A DNA stretch of 64,000 nt, taken from a virus. Lineage: Duplodnaviria > Heunggongvirae > Uroviricota > Caudoviricetes. A program made the translations under genes and the position numbers. Position 1 is the stretch's first letter, and every line of letters starts with the position of its first letter. Shown here piece by piece: positions 29 to 46,947 of the stretch. The stretch is from the IMG/VR virus record IMGVR_UViG_3300022918_000010; one strand, given 5' to 3'. The notes under the pieces were generated by a model that was not told the origin of the DNA, made no database searches, and saw nothing but the letters and a program-made list of their open reading frames with translations.

Positions 29-628
29 ATGTTTACTAATGGAGTATTGGTAGCTAGAGAACAAAAGTTACCAGGTGATCAGATTCATTTGGCTCAATAT
101 CTTTTTGATGGAACATTTACAGATAATGATTTTACTGGTACTATTATTCCAGCATATCAATTTGGTAATCATGTATCATTTGAATTAGAAGAAGGTAAAG
201 TACTTAAAGCTGATTTTAAGATTGAGGATGAAGTTGAATCTAGTGGTATGCCTGTATATATGAGTACTGTAACTAGATTACTAACTAGTTTTGTTACTTA
301 TATAAAGACTAAAAATCTATTAGGATTATCATCTGGTCCACCAACAATTGAATCAGATATGCAGAAGTTACTTACTATGTATAGACTTTATGATATACTT
401 TTTATAGAGGGGCAATTAAATAAGTTCAGTAAGGCATCAAAAGAAGACTTTGAAAGATTTAATTTAGATATGCAGAAATTTGATGAGGACTTTGAGATAA
501 CTAGTATTAGTATAGATTATACTAAACCAGATATATTATACTCAAATTCTAAAGTAACGGATAAATCAATTTTATCTTTTTCATCTGGTGAACAATCATT
601 AATTAATATGATATTTGCAAATAATTAA
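29..628 (+). CDS. hypothetical protein
   Basis: 199-aa ORF from track; stop overlaps next start; no recognisable motif. Confidence 0.5.
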   Translation: MFTNGVLVAREQKLPGDQIHLAQYLFDGTFTDNDFTGTIIPAYQFGNHVSFELEEGKVLKADFKIEDEVESSGMPVYMSTVTRLLTSFVTYIKTKNLLGLSSGPPTIESDMQKLLTMYRLYDILFIEGQLNKFSKASKEDFERFNLDMQKFDEDFEITSISIDYTKPDILYSNSKVTDKSILSFSSGEQSLINMIFANN

Positions 629-1053: not shown

Positions 1054-1335
1054 ATGAAACAAATACAAAAACTATTATTACAAGCTCAAGAGAAATATCC
1101 AATTGGTACTAAAGTAAATAATAAAAATTTATTTAATTACGATGGTAGGGGTGGAGATTTCACTGTTACTGGTAGTGAAATATATATTACCAGTTCTAAT
1201 GTGATATCAATTAGTAGTAATAGTGTTGACATGGGAGGCTCATATAGTTTATATAGACAAGGTATATGGGCAGATATTACTGAAAAGGTAGTTACAGATC
1301 TTGATAAAGCCAGACAAATAATATATTCAGAATAA
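1054..1335 (+). CDS. small protein, paralog family A (C-terminus LDKARQIIYSE)
   Basis: shared C-terminal motif with 6 other ORFs; translationally coupled. Confidence 0.6.
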   Translation: MKQIQKLLLQAQEKYPIGTKVNNKNLFNYDGRGGDFTVTGSEIYITSSNVISISSNSVDMGGSYSLYRQGIWADITEKVVTDLDKARQIIYSE

Positions 1336-1336
1336 T

Positions 1337-1663
1337 ATGGAAGATATACAACAAGTATTGGAAAAAGCTAGACAAATATATGTTACTGGTACTGTATTTA
1401 TATTTGCTCATTTATCTCATAAGGAAGACTCATTAACTGATACGTCTTATCATTGTGAAATAACTGATGATCACTATTTAGATATATATAGAGATCTTAT
1501 AATGCTTTATGATAAGAGTAATAAATCAATAGTTAGTTGTTATGGGTCCCAATGTTATAGTGCTATAATATATGTTGAGAAAGAGAATAAATTTGCACCT
1601 ATTATAAAACAAGGTATTAATATAGAATTGATAGAGGCTAGAAAGATAATATATAAAGACTGA
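1337..1663 (+). CDS. small protein, paralog family A (C-terminus IEARKIIYKD)
   Basis: C-terminal motif; next ATG embedded in last codons (ctgATGg). Confidence 0.6.
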   Translation: MEDIQQVLEKARQIYVTGTVFIFAHLSHKEDSLTDTSYHCEITDDHYLDIYRDLIMLYDKSNKSIVSCYGSQCYSAIIYVEKENKFAPIIKQGINIELIEARKIIYKD

Positions 1664-1950
1664 TGGAATATATAACTATAGATAATTTAGAACAATTCAG
1701 AAAGGTTTGTCTTATCTATAGGAAACTAGGTAAACTTCCTTTTGTTGATACAAGAGAAATAACAATTTACGATCGTGTTGATCAAGATGAAAGATATAAA
1801 ATCTTTATGTATGCTGATAATAGACATTATTATACTCAGTATTATGATATCAAAAATGGCTTAGCTAATACTGATAGAATAATACCAGCATCATTATTTG
1901 TATGTGAATACTACCTAGATAAACTTGAACAGAAACTTAAAACCAAATAA
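1663..1950 (+). CDS. small protein, paralog family C (C-terminus YLDKLEQKLKTK)
   Basis: C-terminal NLDKLE-type motif. Confidence 0.55.
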   Translation: MEYITIDNLEQFRKVCLIYRKLGKLPFVDTREITIYDRVDQDERYKIFMYADNRHYYTQYYDIKNGLANTDRIIPASLFVCEYYLDKLEQKLKTK

Positions 1951-1951
1951 T

Positions 1952-2278
1952 ATGAAATATTTAATCTTATTTCCATTAAATGGAGAACTTAATTTATTAG
2001 GTACTCTTAATTCTCATTCATATGAGAAAGTAGCTGAAGTAGAAGCTACCAGCATTAGTTGTCTTTTACAGAAAGCTCATGATATGTTTATTGAATCATG
2101 TAATAGAGGGTTATCTAAAGGAGATATAATATTAGAACCACATGATGGAACTTCATATATGATAGAGGATTCAGAAATATCTTTATTATGCAATTGTAAT
2201 CATTTATATGAACATCTATATGATTATGAATATTATGATCATAATATAATTGATCAAGGAAAACATTACTATCATTAA
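1952..2278 (+). CDS. hypothetical protein
   Basis: track ORF 1925-2278; start moved to in-frame ATG at 1952 just after upstream stop. Confidence 0.5.
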   Translation: MKYLILFPLNGELNLLGTLNSHSYEKVAEVEATSISCLLQKAHDMFIESCNRGLSKGDIILEPHDGTSYMIEDSEISLLCNCNHLYEHLYDYEYYDHNIIDQGKHYYH

Positions 2279-2290
2279 TACGTCCCGTTA

Positions 2291-2320
2291 AATAGTGGTG
2301 AAATTAGTAGCCACTATTTT
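2291..2320 (+). terminator. hairpin AATAGTGG-loop-CCACTATT followed by T/A-rich run
   Basis: 8-bp inverted repeat in gap 2279-2332. Confidence 0.35.
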
Positions 2321-2332
2321 AAATTTAAAATT

Positions 2333-2641
2333 ATGCATATTACATACGTAATTAAAACAAAAGATATAAATGAATACGAAAAAGCTTGTGGTATATTAGC
2401 ATCACAAGGATATAAATGGACAGGTGATGTTGACTCTCCTGTAGATACCAAACTAGTACCATATGATTCTAGTCGTCCATATTTATATGTATGTGGAATA
2501 TATGCTGGTGCAACTAAAAGAGTTTATCATTATAAAACTGATAAGGGATATACTGCTATTTCTTTAGATGATTATATGACAATATCTGATCCTGATTATT
2601 TTGGATTACAAAAAGCACTTAAAATTATTTATCATGACTGA
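2333..2641 (+). CDS. small protein, paralog family A (C-terminus LQKALKIIYHD)
   Basis: C-terminal motif; stop overlaps next ATG (ATGACTGA). Confidence 0.6.
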   Translation: MHITYVIKTKDINEYEKACGILASQGYKWTGDVDSPVDTKLVPYDSSRPYLYVCGIYAGATKRVYHYKTDKGYTAISLDDYMTISDPDYFGLQKALKIIYHD

Positions 2642-2921
2642 AAAACAATTATCAATAGAAGTTCTATCTGAAAATGAATATAATAGATTAACTAAAGAGT
2701 TATTAAAACAGGGATATACTTATTTTGGTAAAGATCCTGCTGAAAGAGCATATATTACTCATGATAAATTCATGATTATTAATTTTAGTCCTCATGCAGC
2801 TAAAAATAATTATATAATAGGATCTAGTACTTCTATTGGAAAAGTTATAAGTATAGATTCTTTTATAGACGGAGATTGTAATGATGATTTATATGAAATA
2901 AGAAAATGGTTATATGACTAG
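2634..2921 (+). CDS. small protein, paralog family B (C-terminus YEIRKWLYD)
   Basis: track ORF 2601-2921; start placed at ATG 2634, matching the junction pattern of 3209. Confidence 0.55.
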   Translation: MTEKQLSIEVLSENEYNRLTKELLKQGYTYFGKDPAERAYITHDKFMIINFSPHAAKNNYIIGSSTSIGKVISIDSFIDGDCNDDLYEIRKWLYD

Positions 2922-3216
2922 AAAAGTAATTTATTGTCGTAATCCAGAAAGATGGGAAGAAATAAATGAATTATTAAAGTCTTTAGGTTATTATTGGAAG
3001 AACGGATCACCAGGTGTAGAACCATTTATACCCGCCTATGTTGAATCTTTTCCTTATTTAGTTATAAATGATGCAGGTAAGGGATATATATTAATAAGAT
3101 TAAGGACTAATGATTTAAAAGACGATGAACAAATATATACCATACCTCAGTTTATATCAGAATATGGTATTAATGCTGAGTTAGAAGAAGCTTTAAAAAT
3201 AATATACAATGACTGA
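2914..3216 (+). CDS. small protein, paralog family A (C-terminus LEEALKIIYND)
   Basis: C-terminal motif. Confidence 0.6.
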   Translation: MTRKVIYCRNPERWEEINELLKSLGYYWKNGSPGVEPFIPAYVESFPYLVINDAGKGYILIRLRTNDLKDDEQIYTIPQFISEYGINAELEEALKIIYND

Positions 3217-3532
3217 TGAAGATAAAAAGTGGATTATAGAGAATTTTACAGAGGGTACACAATTTATTCCAGCTCATATTATTAGTCGCAATGAACATTA
3301 TAATCTAAAAGAATATATATATACTGTACCTAAAGATCCAGTAATTTATTTTAACGAAGATGGTAATGTTACTATAGTTAGAAGTATTTTATCAGATGAT
3401 TGGGATGAATTAGCTAGTGAGTATGGTTGGTATGGAAGAATTAAACATAGAGGTGTAATGGCAACTATAATTACCCCTGGAGGAAGTATTGAGTTAAATA
3501 ATATTAGAAAATGGTTATATGATAAACAATGA
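3209..3532 (+). CDS. small protein, paralog family B (C-terminus NNIRKWLYDKQ)
   Basis: N-terminus WIIENFTEGTQFIP is paralogous to 3844-4146. Confidence 0.6.
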   Translation: MTDEDKKWIIENFTEGTQFIPAHIISRNEHYNLKEYIYTVPKDPVIYFNEDGNVTIVRSILSDDWDELASEYGWYGRIKHRGVMATIITPGGSIELNNIRKWLYDKQ

Positions 3533-3854
3533 TCAGAAAATATTAATACCTGCTACTAAAGATAATTTTAATGATATTATAGATTATTTATATGACCATG
3601 GTTATGTATGGGTAAATGAGAATGAAAATGGTAAATTATCACATGTATATCAAAACGTTACTGATTATATAATGGTAAATTATAATCATACAAATAATAT
3701 ATATACCAGTAATGAGATAAGTAGGAAAAAATCTTATATGCATTATAAAATACATAATATTCATGATATGAAACTAATTTACCCTACCGAACAAAATAAA
3801 CAAAATAGAGATAAAGATCTTCAAGATATAAGAAATTGGTTGTATGATGAATAA
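3519..3854 (+). CDS. small protein, paralog family B (C-terminus QDIRNWLYDE)
   Basis: C-terminal motif. Confidence 0.55.
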   Translation: MINNDQKILIPATKDNFNDIIDYLYDHGYVWVNENENGKLSHVYQNVTDYIMVNYNHTNNIYTSNEISRKKSYMHYKIHNIHDMKLIYPTEQNKQNRDKDLQDIRNWLYDE

Positions 3855-4146
3855 TGAAGAAAAACAATGGGTTATAGATAACTTTACTGAAGGAGCTACT
3901 TTTTATCCTTGTGATGTATATAAACCTGGATTAGAACATTTAATCACAATTCCTCCAAATCCTCTTATAAGTTTTGAAAATGATAATTATTGGTTTATAT
4001 GTAGAGGTAATAATATTGATGAAGAATTTAATAATGAGAGAGGATGGATAGCAACTATAAAAAACAATGAGAAATTATCAAAAATAATTACTCCTGGAGT
4101 ACAAAGTGAGTTAAATAAGATAAGAACTTGGCTTTATAATGATTAA
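3844..4146 (+). CDS. small protein, paralog family B (C-terminus NKIRTWLYND)
   Basis: N-terminus WVIDNFTEGATFYP paralogous to 3209-3532. Confidence 0.6.
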   Translation: MMNNEEKQWVIDNFTEGATFYPCDVYKPGLEHLITIPPNPLISFENDNYWFICRGNNIDEEFNNERGWIATIKNNEKLSKIITPGVQSELNKIRTWLYND

Positions 4147-4429
4147 AGAAAGATACGCTATTCATTGTTTTAATGAAGAAGAACATGAATCATTACAAGA
4201 TATACTATTTTCTTTAGGGTATAAATGGCGTGAACTAAATAGATGGAATTGGGATTATAATTATCCTTGTATATTACTACATGATACTGGTCTTGATAGT
4301 AATATATTATATATTGGAAATGAAGATGATGATGATAGTATATATATAACATATAGTGATTTTGAACGTATATATGGACAAAATAAAGAATTAGAACAAA
4401 TAAGAGAATATTTATATAAACCAGATTAA
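4139..4429 (+). CDS. small protein, paralog family B (C-terminus EQIREYLYKPD)
   Basis: C-terminal motif. Confidence 0.55.
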   Translation: MIKERYAIHCFNEEEHESLQDILFSLGYKWRELNRWNWDYNYPCILLHDTGLDSNILYIGNEDDDDSIYITYSDFERIYGQNKELEQIREYLYKPD

Positions 4430-4431
4430 TT

Positions 4432-4728
4432 ATGAAAAATTTATTATTACTACTTATTATAGTAGTCCTAGGAAGCTGTATAAAGCTATCTAAAGAAGAA
4501 AAACAAGAGATTGAGCTAATAGCTAACTCAAAGATTTTAATGTCTAAGGTGACAGCTAATGATGTTAAACTTGATTATTTTGAAAGCAAATTAAAAAGTA
4601 CTGATACTACTGTAACAAGAGAAAGAATAGATTTTTATATAAAAGAATCTAACAATTTAATTGATTCAAATGAACTATTTCTTGATAGTTTAAGAAAAAT
4701 AGTAGTTATACTTAAAGCTAGGCAATAA
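4432..4728 (+). CDS. putative lipoprotein
   Basis: MKNLLLLLIIVVLGSC signal/lipobox. Confidence 0.5.
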   Translation: MKNLLLLLIIVVLGSCIKLSKEEKQEIELIANSKILMSKVTANDVKLDYFESKLKSTDTTVTRERIDFYIKESNNLIDSNELFLDSLRKIVVILKARQ

Positions 4729-4940
4729 TGAAGACACATAGATATTATAAGTTTATAGTAGAATACCTTTTATCATTTTCGTTATTCTTAATATTTATAA
4801 TATTTATGAGTATTCTACTTAGAGTATTTAATATTATTATTACAAAAGATATGCTTGTTACTATAGGTGTATCTTTTTTATTAATATGGATGACATCATA
4901 TATAGGGAGTTGGTTTACAAGTAAATATAAAGAGAAATGA
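4728..4940 (+). CDS. small membrane protein (2 TM)
   Basis: hydrophobic stretches. Confidence 0.45.
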   Translation: MKTHRYYKFIVEYLLSFSLFLIFIIFMSILLRVFNIIITKDMLVTIGVSFLLIWMTSYIGSWFTSKYKEK

Positions 4941-5158
4941 TAACTAAGAAAAAAGCTTTTTATGCTTTATACTCTATATCAGGAGATAAAGCAGATGATT
5001 GGTTGGATAATTTAGATATTAAACATTTACATCAAATTAAGAGAATAATTTTAGCTGATTATGGTATAAAAGACTTCTCTGAAGAATTAACTAAGGATCT
5101 TTGTATTGTTATGACGTATTTAACAGAACTATATTTGCAAAATCATGAGTCAAAGTAG
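4937..5158 (+). CDS. hypothetical protein
   Basis: ORF track. Confidence 0.45.
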   Translation: MITKKKAFYALYSISGDKADDWLDNLDIKHLHQIKRIILADYGIKDFSEELTKDLCIVMTYLTELYLQNHESK

Positions 5159-5384
5159 AATTCAATATGCTAAAGCTATATATTATGAAGGCGTATGTTA
5201 TATTCCTTTATCAAGTAATGGTGATGATGAAGATTATACTTGTATAGCTGAGTCTTATATGGATTCAAATAAATATGGTATTTATGTTGGACCTGGTTAT
5301 ATTTATAATTATAAACTAGATAAATGGGCTCAAGTTATTAGTAAAGAACTACAAGAAGCATTAGAAATTATTTACAAAGATTAA
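5145..5384 (+). CDS. small protein, paralog family A (C-terminus LQEALEIIYKD)
   Basis: C-terminal motif. Confidence 0.55.
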   Translation: MSQSRIQYAKAIYYEGVCYIPLSSNGDDEDYTCIAESYMDSNKYGIYVGPGYIYNYKLDKWAQVISKELQEALEIIYKD

Positions 5385-5405
5385 AAACTTAAAAACAAAA
5401 AACAT

Positions 5406-5645
5406 ATGTTAGCATTAGTATTAATAAATCATATAGGTATAGTACTTATTATGATTTTAGTTGCATTAATTATTGGACTTATTAGATTAGTATTTCAATA
5501 TATAGAAGATGGTGGTAAACATGTAATTATTAGTAAATCAGTAAAGAAAGAATATAAAAATATAGTAGTAACTCCTATTATTATAGCACTTGTAATATTC
5601 TCTATATTTGAATTATTTTATTGGATCTGTAAAATCTTTTTTTAA
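5406..5645 (+). CDS. small membrane protein
   Basis: two long hydrophobic segments. Confidence 0.45.
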   Translation: MLALVLINHIGIVLIMILVALIIGLIRLVFQYIEDGGKHVIISKSVKKEYKNIVVTPIIIALVIFSIFELFYWICKIFF

Positions 5646-6016
5646 TGGGAATTATAATAAGATTTATATATAGATTAATAGTTAGTCTATTTTTATTACT
5701 ATTCATGTATCCAATGACATTCTTATTTGTATTTATACTTCACTTATTGTGGAGTTTTAATATAAAAAAGAGTTGGAATTCTTTTATAGAAGTAATTAAG
5801 GAGCCAATTGAAGTTGATAGCAATAGTTATAACTATTGGGCAAATTATGAAGAAACAATTCAATTACATATGCACGTATGGGACTATTTATGGAATAAAA
5901 TTACTATAATTAAAAATCCTAATTATAAACCATTTGAATTAATACCTAAAGAAGATAAAGAAGTAAAGAGAATTAAGGCTAAAAAGACTATTGTAAAGGC
6001 TTTAGATGATCTTTAA
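5645..6016 (+). CDS. membrane protein
   Basis: N-terminal hydrophobic segments. Confidence 0.45.
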   Translation: MGIIIRFIYRLIVSLFLLLFMYPMTFLFVFILHLLWSFNIKKSWNSFIEVIKEPIEVDSNSYNYWANYEETIQLHMHVWDYLWNKITIIKNPNYKPFELIPKEDKEVKRIKAKKTIVKALDDL

Positions 6017-6046
6017 ACTTTATATGTTTATAAACTTATAATATTT

Positions 6047-6307
6047 ATGGATATAAAAATAGGTGACATTGTATATTTAAAAGAATGGGCAGGTCAGATA
6101 AGAAATCATAAATGGGATACTGGAAACTTAGATAGAGATATATCTATACAATATATTGTTGAAGATATAGATTATGAATGTGCAGCTAATAGCAATAAAG
6201 ATGTTGTAAAAATAGGAGGAACAGCATTTAGAGCTCAATATCTTAGAATTCAAGATCCTATGATAAAACAATTAGAACAAGCAAGAAAAATAATTTATAC
6301 AGATTAA
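6047..6307 (+). CDS. small protein, paralog family A (C-terminus LEQARKIIYTD)
   Basis: C-terminal motif. Confidence 0.6.
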   Translation: MDIKIGDIVYLKEWAGQIRNHKWDTGNLDRDISIQYIVEDIDYECAANSNKDVVKIGGTAFRAQYLRIQDPMIKQLEQARKIIYTD

Positions 6308-6308
6308 T

Positions 6309-6575
6309 ATGAAAGTATCAGAAATCAAAAACAATGAGATAGTAACAACTGACAATGGTCAGACTATCACAACTAAATTAGATGGAGTATTTATTACTTT
6401 ATCTAAATCATCAGGTATTTTATCAATGAAGACTATTACAGAAGCTAAGGAATCTGTTCCTGTATCTTTAAGTAATATGTTTTCTTTTTTATCATCTATT
6501 AGTCCTGAAGTATTAGACTTTAATGGTCTTGTACTAAAGGAAAAGATAAATATTTCATTCAATGGGACACAATAA
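6309..6575 (+). CDS. hypothetical protein
   Basis: ORF track. Confidence 0.45.
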   Translation: MKVSEIKNNEIVTTDNGQTITTKLDGVFITLSKSSGILSMKTITEAKESVPVSLSNMFSFLSSISPEVLDFNGLVLKEKINISFNGTQ

Positions 6576-6702
6576 GATATATGCTTTAATGTTAGCAATT
6601 TATATTGCTGTATTATTATTTCTATATTGGTTGGGTAAGTAAGATATGTTTTAAGTTGGTCGAAAGCTAAAAAGTGAGTAGACCATTTTAATTTAAACAA
6701 AT

Positions 6703-7035
6703 ATGGAATTAGTAACAGAGAATAATATAGATCATACACGTATAGTAATATTTAGTGAAGAAGGAAGAAATTCTCACTTTCACTCAGGCTGTAGTGAAAT
6801 AGAAGGTGAATTCTATATAGCTCCTGAAAATATAAAGGAAATACATTATGGTGCTAAAGATACAGAAAATTGGTGGCCTTTAATTAAGACTAAAGATTCT
6901 GATCACATCATACGTGGGGTTTTAATTGGTAAATATGATAAATATAAAGAATATCATCTTTGTTATAAGGATGATACATATGAAATAGAAACAATTATGG
7001 ACAATCTAGATATTCTAGAAGCTAAACTTAAATAA
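6703..7035 (+). CDS. small protein, paralog family C (C-terminus IMDNLDILEAKLK)
   Basis: C-terminal motif. Confidence 0.55.
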   Translation: MELVTENNIDHTRIVIFSEEGRNSHFHSGCSEIEGEFYIAPENIKEIHYGAKDTENWWPLIKTKDSDHIIRGVLIGKYDKYKEYHLCYKDDTYEIETIMDNLDILEAKLK

Positions 7036-7036
7036 T

Positions 7037-7642
7037 ATGATAAAGTCAATATCAAAGAAATTAATAGAAGTATCTTTTCCTTCATTTGAAGGTGAGATTA
7101 AAATGTTACCATTTAATTTATCAGATCTTAGTTCTATACCTAAACAGTTTTTAGAGTTAGTAATGAGTATGATTAGCTCCCTTCCTGTAAAAGAAGGTAT
7201 AGCATATCTAACTGTTGATGGTAAAATGATTCCTGCTGGTTCTTCCCATAGAAGAGGTGGAGCACATATAGATGGTAATTATATACCAGAAATGTGTGGA
7301 TGGGGATCTAGTGGAACTGGTGGAAATGGATGGAAAGTAGGAGAAAATGGTAGAGCTTTAGATACTGAAACTCATAAATTATCTTATAATAATCCAGATG
7401 GTGGTATGTTAATAGTATCAGATTATGCTGGTTGTAAAGGATGGAATGGTATGTTCAATGGAGAACCTGGAATAGGTGGTGATTGTAGACATATAGAATT
7501 AGATAAAGGATTTATTCTAGAACCTAATACTGTATATTATGGTTCATCTCAATTTATTCATGAATCACTTCCTTTAGAGAAAGAAGTATATAGAACTATG
7601 GTAAGAATAACTCTTCCATTAGATTATCCAATAATTAACTAA
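7037..7642 (+). CDS. hypothetical Gly/Trp-rich protein
   Basis: GWGSSGTGGNGWKVGENG region; unknown function. Confidence 0.5.
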   Translation: MIKSISKKLIEVSFPSFEGEIKMLPFNLSDLSSIPKQFLELVMSMISSLPVKEGIAYLTVDGKMIPAGSSHRRGGAHIDGNYIPEMCGWGSSGTGGNGWKVGENGRALDTETHKLSYNNPDGGMLIVSDYAGCKGWNGMFNGEPGIGGDCRHIELDKGFILEPNTVYYGSSQFIHESLPLEKEVYRTMVRITLPLDYPIIN

Positions 7643-7649
7643 AAACGAC

Positions 7650-8123
7650 ATGAATAAAGAAAAAATTACATTAATCATTCAGATGAAGATTGATTCACTG
7701 AAGGAAGAAGTTAAAACAGGTAAGAATCAAGAAGCTAAACTTGGAAGAGATTATGCTGATAAAGTAGAAGATGGTACTATTACTACTCAAGATCTTATAG
7801 ATGCTCAAAATCATGGATTAAAAGCTGGTGATCTTATGATAGCATTTACTCATCTTAGAAAGAATGATACTGGAATGACTCAAGCTGAATCTATTGAATT
7901 AGGTCATAAGATTCAATTTATTTATTTAAGTTATCATCAATCTAAAGGTAGAACTGATGGTGCTAATTTATTCAGAGAATCTATGAGGCCACATGAAGAT
8001 GGTATTGATGCTATATATGCTGGTACATATGACCCAGTTAAGTTAGAAGTACTTAAATCTCTTCCTGAAATAAATGCATGGGATCATAAATTAGGTGCGT
8101 CTGCATATTCTAAAATATTCTAA
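7650..8123 (+). CDS. hypothetical protein
   Basis: ORF track. Confidence 0.5.
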   Translation: MNKEKITLIIQMKIDSLKEEVKTGKNQEAKLGRDYADKVEDGTITTQDLIDAQNHGLKAGDLMIAFTHLRKNDTGMTQAESIELGHKIQFIYLSYHQSKGRTDGANLFRESMRPHEDGIDAIYAGTYDPVKLEVLKSLPEINAWDHKLGASAYSKIF

Positions 8124-8125
8124 TA

Positions 8126-8527
8126 GTGACAGCTGAGAAGATAGCTAAATTAAGAGAATTAGCTGATAGAGGTATTGGAGGTGAAAAACAGAATGCTAGA
8201 GATATACTTACTAAACTTGGAGTAGATTGGAAGAAACCTAAGTTAAACTTTCAAGATACAATTAAGAAGACTTTTAAGAAGGATTATACTAGATCATATC
8301 AAATACCTATTAAGGATGCAGGTGATGTATTATTCATAATGCAATTACTTAATAAAATCACTAGTAAAGCTAGTATATCAATAACTGATAATCGTATTCA
8401 ATTTAATTGTACAAGTGTGCAAATGGAGGATATCTCTAAAATCTACAATAAATATAGACAAGATTTTAATGCTAAAATGTGGTATGAATCTGATAAATAT
8501 ATTAATCAATATTTAAAAACAATATAA
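8126..8527 (+). CDS. hypothetical protein
   Basis: ORF track. Confidence 0.5.
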   Translation: MTAEKIAKLRELADRGIGGEKQNARDILTKLGVDWKKPKLNFQDTIKKTFKKDYTRSYQIPIKDAGDVLFIMQLLNKITSKASISITDNRIQFNCTSVQMEDISKIYNKYRQDFNAKMWYESDKYINQYLKTI

Positions 8528-8709
8528 TGGGACAAATAATAGATAAGCCTGAAGGCTATTTAGACCACACTATAAAGAATAGTAAAGGTCAAACACTACT
8601 ACTTATTGAAACAGAAGATGGGATTGTTACAGAGCCTCTAGGAGACTCTTCATACAATTATGAAATAGAAGTATATGATGCTTCTATAGAAATAAGAGAA
8701 GTAGCTTAA
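8527..8709 (+). CDS. hypothetical small protein
   Basis: ORF track. Confidence 0.4.
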   Translation: MGQIIDKPEGYLDHTIKNSKGQTLLLIETEDGIVTEPLGDSSYNYEIEVYDASIEIREVA

Positions 8710-8734
8710 AGATAATGTTTATGTTTTATGGTTT

Positions 8735-8769
8735 AGCCTATACTGAGAAATTGGTATAGGCTTTTTTAT
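8735..8769 (+). terminator. rho-independent terminator
   Basis: AGCCTATAC-loop-GTATAGGCT perfect 9-bp stem followed by TTTTTTATT. Confidence 0.7.
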
Positions 8770-8776
8770 TAATGTT

Positions 8777-9130
8777 ATGGGAAAAATATGGAAATCAGGT
8801 GAAGATGATTATGTAATTATAAAGGATGATGGATCAAGATTACATCTGAAAACAAATTGTAGATATTTAGGACAAGATAGAACTGGTTTATATATAACAT
8901 TTAGATTAATAAAAGTAGAATATATAAGTAGTAGACAGCAATATATTATGAGAGTTAGTGAAGTATACAATTCTAATGGAACTACTCTACTTGCAGATAA
9001 TGAAGATGTATTATTCACTTTTAATTATGGAGATCGTGATAACTATAGTACTATTACTCCCACAGAAATAGTTTCATTACTTGAAACTATGTTATATAAC
9101 ACTAATAAACTTAAACAAAATGGGAAGTAA
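8777..9130 (+). CDS. hypothetical protein
   Basis: ORF track; first gene after terminator. Confidence 0.5.
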   Translation: MGKIWKSGEDDYVIIKDDGSRLHLKTNCRYLGQDRTGLYITFRLIKVEYISSRQQYIMRVSEVYNSNGTTLLADNEDVLFTFNYGDRDNYSTITPTEIVSLLETMLYNTNKLKQNGK

Positions 9131-9368
9131 TAATACAATAACAGATTTTAATAAAGATGATCTGGTATATTATGTACCAAGACATCTTCAACCTCTAGAA
9201 AGAGAAAGTCCAATGTTTAAAGATTGTCAGGAAGGTATAGTAACTAGTATCAGATATCCTTGGGTCTTTGTAAAATATAAGATAAAGAGTAAAACATTTA
9301 CTGGAAAAGATTATTCTAAATATCAAATAACTTCTCAAGCAACTAAACCTGAAGATTTATGGAAGTAG
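9120..9368 (+). CDS. hypothetical protein
   Basis: track ORF 9081-9368 trimmed to ATG 9120, which overlaps the upstream stop by 11 nt. Confidence 0.45.
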   Translation: MGSNNTITDFNKDDLVYYVPRHLQPLERESPMFKDCQEGIVTSIRYPWVFVKYKIKSKTFTGKDYSKYQITSQATKPEDLWK

Positions 9369-9670
9369 ATGAAATAATAGAAATATGTAAAAAGATATAT
9401 ACCAAAGATACTTATTATTTTAATGCTCGTGTGGCTGTTGTAGATAATTATAATAGGTTAACACATTTAGGTTTGCCTATTTTTAAAAAATATCATCATC
9501 AAAATTATAAAGATTCTGACTTAGCTATAAGTAGTGGTAATGGAATAGTATATTGGAATGGTCATTATGCAGAATTATGTGATAATAAGGGTAATATTAT
9601 ACCTTTTCCAGAAGGAGTATTTACTAATTCAGATTTAGAACTAGCTAGAAAGATAATATATGCAGACTAG
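9359..9670 (+). CDS. small protein, paralog family A (C-terminus LELARKIIYAD)
   Basis: C-terminal motif; next ATG inside YAD codons. Confidence 0.6.
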   Translation: MEVDEIIEICKKIYTKDTYYFNARVAVVDNYNRLTHLGLPIFKKYHHQNYKDSDLAISSGNGIVYWNGHYAELCDNKGNIIPFPEGVFTNSDLELARKIIYAD

Positions 9671-10365: not shown

Positions 10366-10545
10366 ATGAATCTAATTAAAGTAATTTTGGCAATTGTAAT
10401 AATATCTTTTGGTATTATACATATTAGTCAACCATCTAACCTTGAAGTATATATAGGTGTAGGTGAAGTAATAATAGCAATGGTGTTATTATATGGTCCA
10501 ATTAAACAATTAATCAAAAACTTAAACAATGAACAACTTTGATCA
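10366..10545 (+). CDS. small 2-TM membrane protein (59 aa), possible SPFH partner
   Basis: unlisted ORF MNLIKVILAIVIISFGIIH...; its 3' end overlaps the SPFH gene start. Confidence 0.45.
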
Positions 10546-11407
10546 AAAGGAATCAGGTATTCCACAACCAGCTAGAACAATTGTAAAGATTCTAGTACCT
10601 CTTATTATTGCAATTATTATATTAGCAGTACAACCATTTACTTATGAGAATGTCGATGCTGGAAATGTAGGGATTAAATTAAATCTTTATGGAACAAATA
10701 GAGGTGTAGATAAGATCACTATTGTTTCAGGAAGAGTGTGGTATAATACCTGGACTACACGTATTGTGGAATTTCCTACATTCATACAAAATGTAGATTA
10801 CAAACCATTTGCAATTAATACTGTAGATGCTGCTAAATTTAATATTGATACAAAAATGCAATATAGAGTATTGTCAGATTCTGTTCCTAGAATATATACA
10901 ACATTTAGATCTTCTCTACAGGAGATACAAGGTGAAGGTAGATATATTCAAACAGCAGTATATGATGCATTTAAGGCTATTGTACCTAAGTATACATCTG
11001 ACTCATTGATGGCTAAAAGATCTCAATTTGAAAGTGAAGTTGAAGTTGTATTAAAGGAAAAACTTGGTTCCAGAGGTATATATTTAGAACAATTGACATC
11101 TAATATAGATCCACCTAGATCAATGGCTGATGCAATTGAGGCTAAGAATGCTAGTATACAAGCTAGATTTAAAGCTGAGAATCAAGCTAAACAAGCTGTT
11201 GCAGAAGCTACAGTAATTAAAGCTAAAGCAGAAGGTGAAGCAGCTGCTACTATTGTTAGAGCTAAAGCAGAATCTGAAGCTAATAGATTAAAACAAGCTA
11301 CACTTACCCCATTATTAGTTGAGATGGAAAGAATACGCCGATGGGATGGTACATATCCAACTACAGTAGCTGGTGCTGGTACTAACTTTTTAATGCAGTT
11401 AAAATAA
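10529..11407 (+). CDS. SPFH/band-7 (HflC/prohibitin-like) domain membrane protein
   Basis: N-terminal TM; VDAGNVGI...G core; C-terminal Ala/Glu/Lys-rich helix AKAEGEAAATIVRAKAESEA typical of HflK/C. Confidence 0.6.
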   Translation: MNNFDQKESGIPQPARTIVKILVPLIIAIIILAVQPFTYENVDAGNVGIKLNLYGTNRGVDKITIVSGRVWYNTWTTRIVEFPTFIQNVDYKPFAINTVDAAKFNIDTKMQYRVLSDSVPRIYTTFRSSLQEIQGEGRYIQTAVYDAFKAIVPKYTSDSLMAKRSQFESEVEVVLKEKLGSRGIYLEQLTSNIDPPRSMADAIEAKNASIQARFKAENQAKQAVAEATVIKAKAEGEAAATIVRAKAESEANRLKQATLTPLLVEMERIRRWDGTYPTTVAGAGTNFLMQLK

Positions 11408-11416
11408 TTAAACGTA

Positions 11417-11446
11417 AACCTGGGGAGTTGTAAAACAAACCAGGTT
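11417..11446 (+). other. hairpin AACCTGG-loop-CCAGGTT
   Basis: 7-bp inverted repeat in the gap between the SPFH and ATPase genes; no T-run. Confidence 0.3.
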
Positions 11447-11461
11447 AATTAAACTAAAAAC

Positions 11462-12490
11462 ATGGATCAAAAATATTTTAAATCAGGAAATAATTATTTC
11501 CTACGTGAAGTAAGTAATGTAGAAGACCCTCTACAAGTAGCACTATATGTGTTACAATTCTCTCCTAAAGAAGGATTTTATTTAGAGAAATCAGCAGAAG
11601 ATTTTCATGTAAATCATAAAATATATGGTAAAGATGAAAAAGCATTTACAGAACGTGTAAAGAAAACATTTAATGCTACCAAAGATAATCTTGGTGTATT
11701 ATTAAATGGAGTAAAAGGTACTGGCAAGTCAGTTCAATTAAAATTAATAGCTAATCATCTTGAGTTACCTATTATTATTATTCCACAAGCTTATGAAGGT
11801 GTAGCAGATTATATTAGTAAAATACCTTATTCAGTTACTCTTGTATTTGATGAGTTTGAAAAAATGTATCCTGCTAACTATAATAACAATGCTGATATAC
11901 TTACAGTAATGGAAGGTGTACTTGCAAATCAATATAGAAGAGTATTCTTATTGACAACAAATAGCACTTATATTAATGATAATCTTCTAGAAAGACCAGG
12001 AAGAATTAGATATCATAGGACTTATGAAGATCTTCCTTTAGAGACAATAGAGGAGATTGTAGATGATCTACTTGAATATAAAGATCTTAGAACTGCTACA
12101 ATTGATTTCTTATCGACTCTTAAAACTATTACTATTGATATAGTAAAGAAAATTGTTGAAGAGGTTAATATCCATAATGAAGACCCTAAAATCTTTGGTA
12201 AATATTTTAATATCAAAAAAGATAGTAAAAAATATGATGTATTAATCATTAATGAGAATGGTACTGAAAAAGTATGGTTTGAAGATGTAGCTTTACCTGT
12301 TTTTGATCCTAAAAAGCCAATTAAAGATCTTAGAGTAAATGGTGAATGGGAAGCTAAAATTATTAGTATTCTTTCTCCAACTATGTTAATTGTTGATGAA
12401 CAGCTAAATGAAAATAATGAACCAGAAGTTCATATTAAGATTAAAATTGTAGATAGAGATAATCTACATAAATCATTTAGAGTTTTCTAG
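11462..12490 (+). CDS. AAA-type ATPase
   Basis: Walker A GVKGTGKS, Walker B LVFDEFEKM, sensor-1 LLTTN. Confidence 0.6.
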   Translation: MDQKYFKSGNNYFLREVSNVEDPLQVALYVLQFSPKEGFYLEKSAEDFHVNHKIYGKDEKAFTERVKKTFNATKDNLGVLLNGVKGTGKSVQLKLIANHLELPIIIIPQAYEGVADYISKIPYSVTLVFDEFEKMYPANYNNNADILTVMEGVLANQYRRVFLLTTNSTYINDNLLERPGRIRYHRTYEDLPLETIEEIVDDLLEYKDLRTATIDFLSTLKTITIDIVKKIVEEVNIHNEDPKIFGKYFNIKKDSKKYDVLIINENGTEKVWFEDVALPVFDPKKPIKDLRVNGEWEAKIISILSPTMLIVDEQLNENNEPEVHIKIKIVDRDNLHKSFRVF

Positions 12491-16511: not shown

Positions 16512-17675
16512 ATGGCTGAAACACAAGACGAAATTATTGAACAATTAGAAGCTAAGGTTCAAGAATATGAGAATTTATTAGAAGAGACTCTTTCTGATAA
16601 AAAAGGATTTGGTAAGATACTAGCAGGTCCTTTTGATCATGATGGTAAGAAGTATTATAGAGTTTCTATAGGAAGTGATATATCAATGGTATATGCTGCT
16701 GAAGTTAGTATGTTTGATGGATCTCCAATTGATCCAACTTTACCTGAAGAAACAGAAGTTATTGTTGTAGGTCAAACTATAGCATGTGTTGTTCCTGAAG
16801 AACTTAAAGTTATTATCGAACCACCAGTATTTGATCTTATTTCATGGTCTGATATAGGTGGATTTAAATCACAACTTCAAATTATCAGAGATGCTATCGA
16901 ACTTCCTATGGTAAATGCTAAGTTAGCAGAAGAATTGGGTGTTCAACCTATCTGTGGTATTCTTTTATATGGAGCTCCAGGTTGTGGTAAAACATATATA
17001 GCAAAAGCTATTGCATCTACAGTACTTGGTGCAACTAGAATTGATCCACAAGCTTTTCAGTATATGAAAGGTGGTGAGATGTTATCTATGTATGTTGGTA
17101 AAACTGAACAGGATATTAAGAATTCATTTGCACAATGTAGAGATTACACTAAACGTACTGGTAAAAAAGCTATTATGTTTATTGATGAAGCTGAAGCATT
17201 ACTTCCTACAAGAGGTAGCAGAAGATCATCTGATGTAGAAACTACTATTGTACCAACATTCTTAAGTGAGATGTCTGGTTTTGAAGGTAATAATCCAATT
17301 GTTATCTTAGCAACTAATAAAAAAGATGCTATTGATGAAGCCATCCTTAGAGAAGGTAGGATTGATATTAAAATTGAGATCAAACGTCCTACAGAGCCTG
17401 ATGCATTAGAGATCTTTGAGATTCATCTTAAGAAACTTAAAACTCATGATGCTGTTGCAGATTTGGCAGAATTTGCATCTTCATCTTTATTTGGATCACC
17501 TGCTGCTAAGAAAGTTAGTGGAGCTATGATAGAAGCTATCTGTAAAGATGCAATACGTAAAACCATGACTAGAGTAATAGCTACTCCAAAAACTAAGGAG
17601 AAAGGAATAACCTTAGATGATATGTCAAAAGCAATAACAGCAATAAATACATCATATGTCACTACAAAAGCGTAA
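16512..17675 (+). CDS. classic-clade AAA+ ATPase (CDC48/FtsH-type module)
   Basis: Walker A GAPGCGKT, Walker B IMFIDEAEAL, second region ILATNKKDAIDEAILREGRIDIKIEI. Confidence 0.75.
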   Translation: MAETQDEIIEQLEAKVQEYENLLEETLSDKKGFGKILAGPFDHDGKKYYRVSIGSDISMVYAAEVSMFDGSPIDPTLPEETEVIVVGQTIACVVPEELKVIIEPPVFDLISWSDIGGFKSQLQIIRDAIELPMVNAKLAEELGVQPICGILLYGAPGCGKTYIAKAIASTVLGATRIDPQAFQYMKGGEMLSMYVGKTEQDIKNSFAQCRDYTKRTGKKAIMFIDEAEALLPTRGSRRSSDVETTIVPTFLSEMSGFEGNNPIVILATNKKDAIDEAILREGRIDIKIEIKRPTEPDALEIFEIHLKKLKTHDAVADLAEFASSSLFGSPAAKKVSGAMIEAICKDAIRKTMTRVIATPKTKEKGITLDDMSKAITAINTSYVTTKA

Positions 17676-23292: not shown

Positions 23293-23516
23293 TTACAATA
23301 ATACCTGGTACTAGATATTTTAAAGATTATTCATATACAAATTATAGAGTAGAAGAATTTACTAGTAATGATCATATTCAAACAAAGCCTATATCAGGTA
23401 ATAAAACAATGCAAGTACATTCATTTACTATACTTGATATAATGTTAGCATCAGATCCTATAGATTCTATATTAGAAAATCTAGAAATATTAGAAAAGAA
23501 ATATGAAAAAGCATGA
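23271..23516 (+). CDS. small protein, paralog family C
   Basis: MFNKGDIVTI...LEILEKKYEKA. Confidence 0.6.
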   Translation: MFNKGDIVTIIPGTRYFKDYSYTNYRVEEFTSNDHIQTKPISGNKTMQVHSFTILDIMLASDPIDSILENLEILEKKYEKA

Positions 23517-23787
23517 ATATTTAATGGCTGAAGACCATTATGAAGTAAGAAGTGTAAAGAAGGGTAGAAAAGAAAAAGTTTGTGAATATTGTGGAAGAGC
23601 TATACCTATAGGAGCTCCAGCAAATACCCACACATTCTATCCTGAATTTCAAGCTTATGATACACATTTAAAATGTAGTGATGATTTTGAGGCTAGTCTA
23701 AATACTCAAGAAGACATAAAACAAAAAGAGTATGAAGAATCCACTGAATATCAATTACAACAAGTTAGAGAATTAATTAAAGAATAA
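23503..23787 (+). CDS. putative zinc-binding small protein
   Basis: CEYCGR...HLKC. Confidence 0.45.
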   Translation: MKKHEYLMAEDHYEVRSVKKGRKEKVCEYCGRAIPIGAPANTHTFYPEFQAYDTHLKCSDDFEASLNTQEDIKQKEYEESTEYQLQQVRELIKE

Positions 23788-24431
23788 TGGCATCAGGAGA
23801 TTTAAGTATAGCAGGATCAGGTTCTCCTATATCAATGCAAAAGTTTACAGACTATTTAGATGCAGAAACTCCTATAGAAAAGCAACCAGAATTAATTGTA
23901 ATGCTTAATCAATCAGGACAAGGATTATTACAGGATAATGATAGTATAGTTCAAGTTATGATAGCTGATAGAGTAATGCAAGCTCATTATTGGAGAGATG
24001 AATTCTGGAATGGAAAGCAGATATCAGCATACTTATATAGATATGTATATTATATGCTAGAAGAAGACGAATATGATATAGTTAAACATAAATATCCAAA
24101 TAACCAAGCTATAGTAGATGCATTAACTTCAGGAGCTTTAACAGAAACTTCAGATGAGTTTGTAAGAATGAAAGGTTATTTTGAATGGCTTAAAAGTAAT
24201 AATGAAGTAACTCATATAGTAGGATTAGTCCAATTAGTAGGAGGTTCATTAAGAGCTGCTGCTAAAAAACAATCTTATCTTAGAATATTTATAGAAGAAC
24301 CTGAAACAGGTATGCATCCTAAAAGAGAAAGAAAACTTGTAACATTAATTAAAATGTTAGGAGATGACTATGGATTTAGTCAAAAAAATCATGACAGAGA
24401 TGTTGATGAAGCTAGAAAAATAATAGGATAA
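23787..24431 (+). CDS. hypothetical protein
   Basis: ORF track. Confidence 0.5.
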   Translation: MASGDLSIAGSGSPISMQKFTDYLDAETPIEKQPELIVMLNQSGQGLLQDNDSIVQVMIADRVMQAHYWRDEFWNGKQISAYLYRYVYYMLEEDEYDIVKHKYPNNQAIVDALTSGALTETSDEFVRMKGYFEWLKSNNEVTHIVGLVQLVGGSLRAAAKKQSYLRIFIEEPETGMHPKRERKLVTLIKMLGDDYGFSQKNHDRDVDEARKIIG

Positions 24432-44612: not shown

Positions 44613-44634
44613 GGGAGATATTATTCTCCCTTTT
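44613..44634. terminator. bidirectional terminator hairpin between convergent genes
   Basis: GGGAGA-TATTAT-TCTCCC followed by TTTTCTTT; overlaps the last codons of minus-strand gene 44621-44923. Confidence 0.55.
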
Positions 44635-45745: not shown

Positions 45746-45747
45746 TA

Positions 45748-46377: not shown

Positions 46378-46378
46378 A

Positions 46379-46942: not shown

Positions 46943-46947
46943 GATTA

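What the first reader, a model, noticed from the sequence alone, without database searches (positions are those of the whole stretch)
1054..9670. Interleaved array of two further paralog families with C-termini ...ARKIIYxD (7 copies) and ...IRKWLYD (5 copies)
Family A (1054, 1337, 2333, 2914, 5145, 6047, 9359) ends LExA(R/L)KIIY-x-D. Family B (2634, 3209, 3519, 3844, 4139) ends xIRKWLYD. Members 3209 and 3844 also share the N-terminus W(I/V)I(E/D)NFTEG. The families are interleaved A-B-A-B-B-B-B. In family A the stop is overlapped by the next ATG (IIY-x-D-stop over ATGACTGA or ATGCAGACTAG). All three family signatures end in a basic-hydrophobic-Tyr-acidic helix terminus. One superfamily with alternative docking helices would explain this. 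A lipoprotein and three small membrane proteins (4432-6016) are embedded in the array.
Basis: seen in the sequence. Interest (0 to 1): 0.65.

Follow-up and report, generated by a model that had tools for sequence, protein, structure and literature searches.

The report
Shared C-terminal helix tag on phage proteins
Twelve small genes in an uncultured, AT-rich phage end in the same 12-residue helix although their main bodies have at least three unrelated folds, so the helix looks like a portable tag, probably for docking or assembly, whose partner is unknown.

Summary
Twelve + strand ORFs between 1054 and 9670 end in [DE]-L-x-x-[AI]-[RL]-x-[IWYF]-[IL]-Y-x-[DE]. A tail profile scores them at 15.6-21.7 bits, always 0-2 residues from the stop codon. 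The next best ORF in all six frames scores 8.3.

The split into families A and B does not hold. With tails removed, the bodies form three classes that cut across A and B:
- an alpha/beta 'GYxW' class: 2333, 2634, 2914, 3519, 4139
- a helix plus SH3-like barrel class: 1054, 1337, 3209, 3844, 5145, 9359
- an SH3-like 'IKIGD' class: 6047

Profile-profile similarity between classes is confined to the tail. Bodies alone give under 1% probability, and the two classes that were modelled (1 and 2) have different predicted folds. Relatives carry intermediate tails such as IRKIIY and IRKLLY.

The tail is selected as a peptide, because codon identity matches codon-usage expectation. It is kept in divergent relatives and stayed in place when a body was swapped between two 97%-identical genomes. 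The class-2 body is a stand-alone copy of a widespread phage repeat that has no tail in multi-repeat proteins.

Best reading: a modular C-terminal amphipathic helix used for docking or assembly. Its partner and function are unknown. 'One superfamily' is not supported; 'alternative docking helices' remains plausible but untested.

The parts
1054..1335 (+). Class-2 body (N-terminal helix, YPIGT, SH3-like barrel) with tail DLDKARQIIYSE
   Evidence: 18.0 bits. AlphaFold model pLDDT 77 with helix 2-14, six strands, helix 82-92. Body HMM E = 1.4e-20.
1337..1663 (+). Class-2 body with tail ELIEARKIIYKD
   Evidence: (18.1 bits).
2333..2641 (+). Class-1 alpha/beta 'GYxW' body with tail GLQKALKIIYHD. 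The next ATG lies inside the H-D codons.
2634..2921 (+).
2914..3216 (+). It is the closest paralog of 4139, which carries a type B tail.
3209..3532 (+). Class-2 body (WIIENFTEG variant) with tail ELNNIRKWLYDKQ
   Evidence: (E = 2e-17 to 3844).
3519..3854 (+). Class-1 body with tail DLQDIRNWLYDE
3844..4146 (+). Class-2 body with tail ELNKIRTWLYND
4139..4429 (+). Class-1 body with tail ELEQIREYLYKPD
5145..5384 (+). Class-2 body with tail ELQEALEIIYKD. In the 97%-identical genome L001 this body is replaced by an SH3-like body while the tail is kept.
   Evidence: Homology breaks at the ATG and resumes at V-I-S-K/R-E-L-Q.
6047..6307 (+). Class-3 SH3-like body (MDIKIGDIVYLKEW) with tail QLEQARKIIYTD
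   Evidence: (21.7 bits). The ortholog in L003 has 32% body identity and 10/10 tail identity.
9359..9670 (+). Class-2 body with tail DLELARKIIYAD
4432..6016 (+). Embedded non-family genes: lipoprotein 4432-4728, membrane proteins 4728-4940, 5406-5645 and 5645-6016, and soluble ORF 4937-5158. They are interrupted by family member 5145-5384.
23503..24431 (+). Two weaker tail-like endings outside the array: 23503-23787 (QLQQVRELIKE) and 23787-24431 (VDEARKIIG, a 214-aa protein with weak ABC-ATPase-like matches)
   Evidence: (8.3 and 4.9 bits).

Best explanation
The conserved ending is a portable C-terminal amphipathic helix of about 12 residues. This phage lineage attaches it to small single-domain proteins with at least three unrelated bodies. 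The consensus is [DE]-L-[EDQN]-x-[A/I]-[R/L]-K-[I/W/F/Y]-[I/L]-Y-x-[D/E].

It most likely acts as a common docking or assembly handle. The variable body would bind something specific, and the constant tail would plug each protein into one shared partner, either a phage or host protein or the other tail-bearing proteins. The A form (A-R/L-K-I-I-Y) and the B form (I-R-x-W/Y/F-L-Y) are variants of one tag joined by intermediates.

The genes sit in a fast-changing tandem array. In it, bodies are exchanged and copies are gained or lost by recombination, and the tail marks the 3' boundary of the exchanged unit.

Shown here: the motif, its strict C-terminal position, its independence from the body fold, selection at the peptide level, conservation in divergent relatives, and one head swap. 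Inferred: that the tail binds a partner, and what that partner is.
For: 1. The position is strictly terminal and highly non-random: 12 hits of 15.6-21.7 bits, all 0-2 residues from the stop, against a next best of 8.3 bits.
2. The tail is independent of the body. hhalign similarity between classes is confined to the tail, and bodies alone give under 1%. The two AlphaFold models have different folds. In relatives the same tail sits on further bodies, which by eye look all-helical or coiled-coil (L009 and L010).
3. The class-2 body matches 459 proteins at E < 1e-3. Among the best 150 listed, most are 300-1300 aa with 2-7 copies of the domain, and in the five inspected the copies follow one another without the tail. 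Only 14 of 315 domain matches in the long proteins held locally extend into the tail positions. The tail is therefore an add-on to the stand-alone versions.
4. Selection acts on the peptide, not the DNA. At tail positions with identical amino acids, codons are identical in 477 of 781 pairwise cells, against 458 expected from codon usage.
5. The tail is kept in divergent phages: L003 (32% GC), L010 (26% GC) and L037. Among tail-bearing ORFs in the held loci, every one that the body HMMs detect (20 class 1, 25 class 2, 5 class 3) carries the tail; only three of these were not used to build the HMMs. The ortholog pair w6047 / L003-8008 has 32% body identity and 10/10 tail identity.
6. Between two 97%-identical genomes the body of 5145 is replaced while the tail stays. 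The breakpoints are at the ATG and at the first tail codons.
7. Polar residues are strongly conserved across unrelated bodies: R in 34/45, Y in 39/45, and a terminal D or E in 36/45. That pattern suits a specific interface better than generic hydrophobic packing.
8. AlphaFold predicts a helix at the tail in both modelled classes.
Against: - No partner has been identified and no binding test was possible.
- I could not inspect model coordinates. The tail may simply pack back onto its own domain.
- Several variants (A, B, intermediates) coexist in one genome, which is untidy for a single shared partner.
- The tail is short for a stand-alone interaction module.
- The family is confined to a narrow uncultured lineage, so co-occurrence statistics with candidate partners cannot be computed.
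- The tail weakly resembles the N-terminal helix of the class-2 repeat. This allows a purely structural origin, at least for class 2.
Confidence: 0.5

Rival explanations
1. The tail is an intramolecular structural helix. For class 2 it would be a relic of the N-terminal helix of the following repeat in an ancestral multi-repeat protein. It caps the small domain and has no shared partner. It would have spread to other bodies only because recombination between array members uses it as a homology arm.
For: - AlphaFold places a helix at both ends of the class-2 barrel.
- The N-terminal helices of class-2 domains score higher with a tail PSSM than control segments do: mean -6.9 against -11.8, p about 0.001.
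- In some multi-repeat proteins the helix following a barrel reads NLEKAKRIY or LADARKMF, one residue shorter than the tail.
- A head swap with a breakpoint at the tail shows that recombination does occur there.
Against: - The same 12 residues, including a conserved Arg, Tyr and terminal acid, are kept on unrelated folds that offer different packing surfaces.
- Synonymous sites are randomised while the peptide is kept, so it is not merely a recently spread DNA segment.
- The similarity to the N-terminal helix is weak. Most PSSM scores are negative, and the best HMM hit is 4.3 bits.
Confidence: 0.25
2. The tail is a degradation or unfolding tag. It would mark these accessory proteins, or the targets their bodies hold, for an AAA+ machine. 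The candidate is the phage's own ATPase at 16512-17675, which has a coiled-coil, an OB-like domain and an AAA domain. The analogy is the way Pup's helix binds the coiled coil of Mpa.
For: - The window encodes a Cdc48/VAT/ARC-like AAA protein (E = 1e-67 to VAT, 168 bits to Mpa/ARC). By eye it has an N-terminal heptad-rich helix followed by an OB-like stretch.
- This gene lies among the arrays of tail-bearing small genes.
- Terminal tags are the usual way such machines recognise their clients (general knowledge).
Against: - There is no evidence of interaction.
- The distance from the Tyr to the C-terminus varies from 1 to 4 residues, unlike degrons that read the alpha-carboxylate.
- I could not test whether the ATPase co-occurs with tails in the relatives.
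- No protease partner was found. The ATPase ends in TKA and lacks an HbYX motif.
Confidence: 0.1
3. The conservation reflects a nucleic-acid or translational signal rather than a protein motif. Options are a recombination site, a promoter or coupling signal for the overlapping downstream start, or a nascent peptide acting in the ribosome tunnel at termination.
For: - The motif lies in the last 12 codons.
- 8 of 12 tail genes overlap the next start.
- One recombination breakpoint maps to the start of the tail.
Against: - Codon identity is no higher than codon usage predicts: 477 observed against 458 expected.
- Overlaps are equally common at other junctions, 67 of 119.
- Spacing from the motif to the stop varies from 1 to 4 codons, and spacing to the next ATG ranges from -14 to +21 nt.
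- The residue pattern has helical amphipathic periodicity.
Confidence: 0.05
4. The tail is a targeting signal for membrane association, export, or packaging into the virion for ejection. Unrelated cargo proteins would share it, as Dot/Icm effectors share a C-terminal signal.
For: - A strictly C-terminal short motif on unrelated bodies is the hallmark of such signals (general knowledge).
- A lipoprotein and membrane-protein genes are embedded in the array.
Against: - The net charge is neutral to acidic, unlike known membrane-targeting helices.
- In this window the genes lie upstream of replication genes among small ORFs, which looks like an early region, and no structural genes are seen in the window.
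- No known phage packaging signal is C-terminal (from memory).
Confidence: 0.07

Closest known systems
Poxvirus ankyrin-repeat proteins with a C-terminal PRANC (F-box-like) motif (from memory)
   Same: A viral multigene family in which variable target-binding parts carry one short conserved C-terminal helical motif. That motif docks all members onto a single machine, the host SCF ligase.
   Different: There is no sequence relation. PRANC is about 30 residues long and the bodies are all ankyrin repeats. Here the tail is about 12 residues, the bodies have unrelated folds, the virus is a bacteriophage, and the partner is unknown.
C-terminal clamp-binding tails of phage T4 gp43, gp33 and gp55, which bind the gp45 sliding clamp (from memory)
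   Same: Several unrelated proteins of one phage share a short extreme C-terminal hydrophobic motif that docks them to one hub.
   Different: The motif differs (SLDFLF-like). In T4 it serves a few large proteins of known function. Here it sits on at least 12-20 small paralogous accessory proteins, and no clamp gene has been linked to it.
MIM helices of ESCRT-III subunits binding the MIT domain of the Vps4 AAA ATPase, and the Pup helix binding the Mpa coiled coil (from memory)
   Same: A C-terminal amphipathic helix acts as the handle that an AAA+ ATPase N-domain recognises. This window does encode an ATPase with a coiled-coil, an OB-like domain and an AAA domain.
   Different: The consensus differs from MIM1 ([DE]xxLxxRLxxL[KR]). 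There is no MIT domain, no ESCRT-III fold and no evidence of interaction.
Cassette exchange in polymorphic toxin loci (PMC3482391) and PeSL-mediated module shuffling in T4-type phages (from memory)
   Same: Variable modules are swapped by recombination at a conserved junction inside a hyperplastic region. The 5145 head swap shows this.
   Different: In polymorphic toxins the constant part is N-terminal and the variable part is a toxin. PeSLs are intergenic promoter and stem-loop DNA elements. Here the constant junction is a coding tail selected as a peptide.
Uncharacterised multi-repeat phage proteins carrying the 'YPIGT...GxGYxYxxGKWAEI' domain, for example Cellulophaga phage Calle_1 gp61 and a phi38:1 hypothetical protein
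   Same: The class-2 bodies are homologous to this repeat: 459 hits at E < 1e-3, a Foldseek top hit in phi38:1, and tblastn hits only in Cellulophaga phages.
   Different: In those proteins the domain occurs 2-7 times in one polypeptide without the tail. Here it is one domain per gene, always with the tail.

Membership tests
   With tails removed, 2914 (A) matches 4139 (B) at E = 7e-8, and 2333 (A) matches 4139 (B) and 2634 (B). Each body HMM recovers members with both tail types. Intermediate tails such as IRKIIY and IRKLLY exist.
One superfamily comprising A, B and C | Detectable similarity beyond the terminal 8-10 residues | tested here: not met
   hhalign on bodies alone gives under 1% probability between classes 1, 2 and 3. 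The A/B tail and the C tail give 0.1%.
One superfamily comprising A, B and C | A common predicted fold | tested here: not met
   The class-2 model is a helix, six strands and a helix. The class-1 model is strand, helix, three strands, two helices. Both models have only moderate confidence (pLDDT 77 and 72).
'YPIGT...GKWAEI' repeat domain (unnamed; absent from Pfam and PHROGs) | Significant profile match over the helix-plus-barrel unit | tested here: met
   The class-2 profile finds 459 proteins at E < 1e-3 and 86 at E < 1e-10, covering profile positions of about 3-75. The shared motifs are visible in the sequences.
SH3-like / Sm-like small beta-barrel fold (class 2) | Structural superposition with significant Z or E | tested here: inconclusive
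Pfam, PHROG or PDB families (any) | A match above the curated threshold | tested here: not met
   None of the 12 proteins gives a Pfam hit below E = 0.03. The best PHROG hit is E = 0.0011, to a family of unknown function. There is no meaningful PDB sequence match.
DNA-level repeat or regulatory cassette (PeSL-like) | Nucleotide conservation beyond what the protein sequence requires | tested here: not met
   477 identical codons observed against 458 expected over 781 pairwise cells with identical amino acids.
Docking motif for a common partner (functional class) | Demonstrated binding of the tail to a partner | not testable with these tools
ESCRT-III MIM1 motif | Consensus [DE]xxLxxRLxxL[KR] and an MIT-domain ATPase partner | tested here: not met
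   The tail consensus from 45 sequences does not fit MIM1. By eye, the ATPase N-terminus is a coiled coil plus an OB-like stretch, not an MIT domain.

The most novel reading that the evidence does not exclude
The tails may be genetically encoded adaptor tags. Each small body would bind a different host protein, for example a defence or housekeeping factor. Its tail helix would dock on the N-terminal coiled coil of the phage's own PAN/ARC-like AAA+ unfoldase (16512-17675). The result would be a programmable system for remodelling or removing host proteins, with heads that can be exchanged by recombination. It would be a phage counterpart of Pup-Mpa or of poxvirus ANK-PRANC/SCF. The second tail type (NLDKLExKY, 'family C') would then be a second docking specificity.
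Probability: 0.08. Interest if true: 0.85.

Novelty: new variant of a known kind. Interest (0 to 1): 0.5.

Why it matters
Small accessory genes of large phages are mostly of unknown function. Many are thought to be host-takeover or counter-defence factors.

A short tag shared by about 20 such proteins per genome, across unrelated folds, would point to a single hub through which they all act. One pull-down with the tail peptide could then place a whole block of unknown genes in a pathway. It would also yield a compact, transferable interaction tag.

The work also defines a widespread, unnamed phage repeat domain (YPIGT...GKWAEI), with 459 hits at E < 1e-3 among 1.84 billion cluster representatives at 50% identity. 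It shows head swapping at a coding junction in a natural phage population.

If the tail turns out to be only a structural cap, the finding reduces to a lineage-specific paralog expansion.

Tried and rejected
- **Annotation searches.** Pfam and PHROG scans of all 12 proteins gave nothing usable. Megablast against phage genomes found no match.
- **Protein-based locus searches.** Searching IMG/VR with neighbour 7037-7642 and with the AAA protein found no relatives.
- **Word-indexed homolog searches.** All three returned almost only the phage's own proteins. The exhaustive HMMER search was the one that revealed the class-2 repeat family.
- **Back-translated tail patterns.**
  - IMG/VR: one real contig out of five contigs (six stretches).
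  - JGI metagenomes: one clear case (L037) out of 34, plus a truncated tail-like ORF in L022 that was not followed up.
  - GTDB genomes: 10 scattered matches whose taxa look like chance; not translated.
  - A RarA-like protein ending RRLEAARKIIYGE (L032) was judged coincidental.
- **DNA-level or translational-coupling explanation.** Rejected on codon statistics and junction statistics.
- **A retracted impression.** By eye, a class-1-like body upstream of the window seemed to carry a C-type tail. The class-1 body HMM did not support this, so I dropped it.
- **Tail derived from the class-2 N-terminal helix.** The signal is weak only.
- **Literature.** Two full-text searches found no description of such a tail.
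- **tRNAs.** None in the window.

Full report
**Context**

The window is 24-33% GC (about 28% overall) and almost entirely coding on the + strand. It has no nucleotide match among 50,697 phage records. It encodes phage replication functions:
- a family B DNA polymerase, at most 35% identical to known phage polymerases
- a DnaB-like helicase, a primase, a PD-(D/E)XK nuclease and four AAA+ ATPases

Exact-protein look-up places it on 135-138 kb metagenomic contigs. ENA ERZ27228460 k141_1589990 (locus L002) matches the window's gene layout. ERZ27228646 k141_6437 (locus L001) is a 93-98% identical variant over the aligned blocks.

The host is probably a member of the Flavobacteriia, on three indirect grounds. 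Homologs of the class-2 domain among cultured phages occur only in Cellulophaga phages. The genome is AT-rich. It encodes proteins with signal peptides ending in a Cys lipobox.

**The observation**

All twelve ORFs exist as listed. Anchored on the conserved Tyr, 45 distinct tails from this phage and its relatives give this consensus:

| Position relative to Tyr | Residues (count out of 45) |
|---|---|
| -9 | E or D (35) |
| -8 | L (44) |
| -7 | E, D, Q or N |
| -6 | variable |
| -5 | A (28) or I (15) |
| -4 | R (34) or L (11) |
| -3 | K (25) |
| -2 | I (32), or W, F, Y, L |
| -1 | I (36) or L (9) |
| 0 | Y (39) |
| +1 | variable |
| +2 | D or E (36) |

A profile of these tails was scanned over every stop-to-stop ORF of at least 30 codons in all six frames. 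It scores the twelve at 15.6-21.7 bits, each ending 0-2 residues before the stop. The next scores are 8.3 and 4.9 bits, both also at C-termini (ORFs 23503 and 23787), and then noise. The motif is therefore real, strictly C-terminal and far beyond chance.

The stop/start overlap is not special to these genes: 67 of 119 other junctions overlap, against 8 of 12 here. The embedded lipoprotein and three membrane proteins are confirmed by hydropathy. The array also continues upstream of the window, with 6 further members in L002 and 8 in L001.

**A and B are not families**

With the last 16 residues removed, BLASTP groups the proteins differently:
- 2914 (A) matches 4139 (B) at E = 7e-8.
- 2333 (A) matches 4139 (B) and 2634 (B).
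- 3209 matches 3844 at E = 2e-17.

Alignments and body-only HMMs define three classes:

| Class | Body | Window members |
|---|---|---|
| 1 | strand, helix, 'GY-x-W', alpha/beta | 2333, 2634, 2914, 3519, 4139 |
| 2 | N-terminal helix, 'YP-x-GT', barrel, 'G-K-W-A-x-I' | 1054, 1337, 3209, 3844, 5145, 9359 |
| 3 | 'IKIGDxV', SH3-like | 6047 |

Classes 1 and 2 each carry both A and B tails. Relatives carry intermediate tails: IRKIIY four times, plus IRKLLY and IRIFIY. The closest body relative of 1054 (A tail) in L003 has a B-like tail.

**Bodies are unrelated; only the tail is shared**

hhalign on full-length class profiles gives 93-95% probability, but the aligned region is only the 16-30 C-terminal columns. 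On bodies alone the probability is under 1%.

| | Class 2 (1054, 11 sequences) | Class 1 (2914, 9 sequences) |
|---|---|---|
| Mean pLDDT | 77 | 72 |
| Predicted elements | helix 2-14, six strands, helix 82-92 | strand, helix, three strands, two helices |

Model confidence is moderate, so the fold assignments are tentative. The difference in secondary-structure order is clear. These include a MIB_HERC2 domain protein and a WGR domain protein. It shows no profile similarity to the A/B tail.

**The class-2 body is a widespread repeat that normally lacks the tail**

An exhaustive HMMER search of 1.84 billion cluster representatives found 459 proteins at E < 1e-3 and 86 at E < 1e-10. Among the best 150 listed, most are 300-1300 residues long with 2-7 copies of the unit 'LLEEAKRRYPIGTKY...GxGYxYxxGKWAEI'. 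The copies follow each other directly.

The matches cover profile positions of about 3-75, which is the body without the tail. Only 14 of 315 domain matches in the long proteins held locally reach the tail positions. One such protein lies in a phage-like contig with NAMPT, PRPP synthetase and Thg1 genes. No Pfam or PHROG family covers the domain. Hence the tail is an addition specific to the stand-alone versions in this lineage.

**Selection and dynamics**

- Codons are no more alike than codon usage predicts at tail positions where two paralogs share an amino acid: 477 identical against 458 expected, out of 781 cells. The peptide is what is conserved, not the DNA.
- The tail is retained in divergent relatives:
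  - L003 (32% GC, ten tail genes of all three classes)
  - an IMG/VR contig (L006 and L009), with four further tail genes on other bodies
  - L010 (26% GC, four A-type tails including bodies that look all-helical, plus two C-type tails)
  - L037 (two tandem class-1 genes)
- Every tail-bearing ORF in the held loci that the class 1, 2 and 3 body HMMs detect carries the tail: 20, 25 and 5 ORFs. The ORF list was pre-selected by tail, so this does not exclude tail-less members, and all but three of these ORFs (two in L037, one in L010) were also used to build the HMMs.
- The ortholog pair 6047 / L003-8008 has 32% body identity and 10/10 tail identity.
- Between the window and L001, homology stops at the ATG of ORF 5145 and resumes at the codons for V-I-S-K/R-E-L-Q. 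In between, a class-2 body is replaced by an SH3-like body.
- L001 and L002 also differ in copy number upstream of the window. By eye, one L002 gene looks like a chimera of two L001 paralogs. The array therefore evolves by recombination among its members.

**Mechanism**

The best-supported account (confidence about 0.5) is a modular C-terminal amphipathic helix. It would serve as a docking or assembly handle shared by otherwise unrelated small domains. The argument rests on four points:
- fold independence;
- obligate presence in this lineage, against absence in the fused-repeat homologs;
- conservation of polar residues (Arg, Tyr, terminal acid);
- peptide-level selection.

Binding itself is inferred, not shown.

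Rivals:
- **Purely structural cap (0.25).** This could derive from the next repeat's N-terminal helix. The support is weak.
- **Unfolding or degradation tag (0.1).** This would be read by the phage's own coiled-coil / OB-like / AAA ATPase at 16512-17675. It is attractive but wholly circumstantial.
- **Targeting signal (0.07).**
- **DNA or translational signal (0.05).** disfavour it.

**Comparison with known systems**

The logic resembles several known systems, none of which shows sequence or family membership here:
- poxvirus ANK-PRANC proteins
- T4 clamp-binding C-terminal tails
- MIM-MIT and Pup-Mpa helix docking
- the cassette exchange of polymorphic toxin loci

I found no description of this tail in Pfam, PHROGs, PDB sequences or two full-text literature searches.

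**Verdict**

The feature is real and the classification needed correcting. 'One superfamily' is not supported, while 'a modular tail that may dock' remains plausible and untested. Novelty: a new variant of a known kind, namely a shared terminal motif on a viral multigene set. Interest is moderate (0.5) because the function and the partner remain unknown.

Noticed in passing
window 16512-17675 (+): A 387-aa single-domain AAA+ ATPase. By eye it has an N-terminal heptad-rich helix and an OB-like stretch, the layout of PAN/ARC/Mpa. phmmer gives E = 1e-67 to archaeal VAT/p97 and 168 bits to Mpa/ARC. It ends in ...TTKA with no HbYX motif. This is unusual for a phage whose likely host lacks proteasomes.
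   Followed up: partly
It also sits on mixed bodies: an SH3-like 'MFKxGDxV' type, MIB_HERC2 (20657-20965, 33.9 bits) and WGR (24675-24950, 26.8 bits). It has no profile similarity to the A/B tail.
   Followed up: partly
window 1054-1335 and homologs P0012-P0152: The class-2 body defines a widespread, unnamed repeat domain of about 75 aa (LLEEAKRRYPIGTKY...GxGYxYxxGKWAEI). It has 459 hits at E < 1e-3, with 2-7 copies per protein in most of the listed hits. Among cultured phages it appears only in Cellulophaga phages (Calle_1 gp61, phi38:1, phi40:1). It is absent from Pfam and PHROGs.
   Followed up: partly
window 28990-30084 and 42163-43254 (+): Two MoxR-type AAA ATPases (Pfam bpMoxR and AAA_5). 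Each is followed by an overlapping gene of 414-458 aa with no Pfam match (30068-31312, 43232-44608). These may be paired systems.
   Followed up: no
window 10529-12490 (+): An SPFH/Band 7 membrane-scaffold protein (E = 1e-21) lies directly upstream of a divergent AAA protein of 342 aa.
   Followed up: no
window 7650-8123 (+): This 157-aa ORF is absent from the variant genome L001. Homology runs 5333-7642 and then resumes at 8124, so this is an indel of one whole gene between variants 93-95% identical across the flanking blocks.
   Followed up: partly
L001 2528-4683 against L002 2646-4279 (upstream of the window): Copy number of tail genes differs, 8 against 6. By eye, L002 3992-4279 looks like a chimera of L001 4161 and 4405, and the class-1 gene L001 3869 is missing. 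This would be unequal recombination within the array.
   Followed up: partly
window 44621-47238 (-) and 61956-63968 (-): These are the only minus-strand gene blocks, and GC and AT skew invert there. The 44.6-47.2 kb block encodes small proteins with hydrophobic N-termini or lipoprotein-like signals, so it may be a lysis or membrane module.
   Followed up: no
window 23503-23787, 23787-24431, 35413-35859: Three weaker tail-like C-termini sit on other proteins: QLQQVRELIKE, VDEARKIIG (a 214-aa protein with weak ABC-ATPase-like matches) and DFLHKLLYEEE. The last has a counterpart in L010 (DFLHNLLYGEDD).
   Followed up: partly
window 29-628 (+), full length in L002 6659-7420: The first ORF of the window is the 3' part of a 253-aa gene containing an SSGEQ motif that resembles the ABC signature. 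It gave no Pfam hit.
   Followed up: no
window 1-64000: ARAGORN finds no tRNA or tmRNA genes in 64 kb of a phage of about 136 kb.
   Followed up: yes
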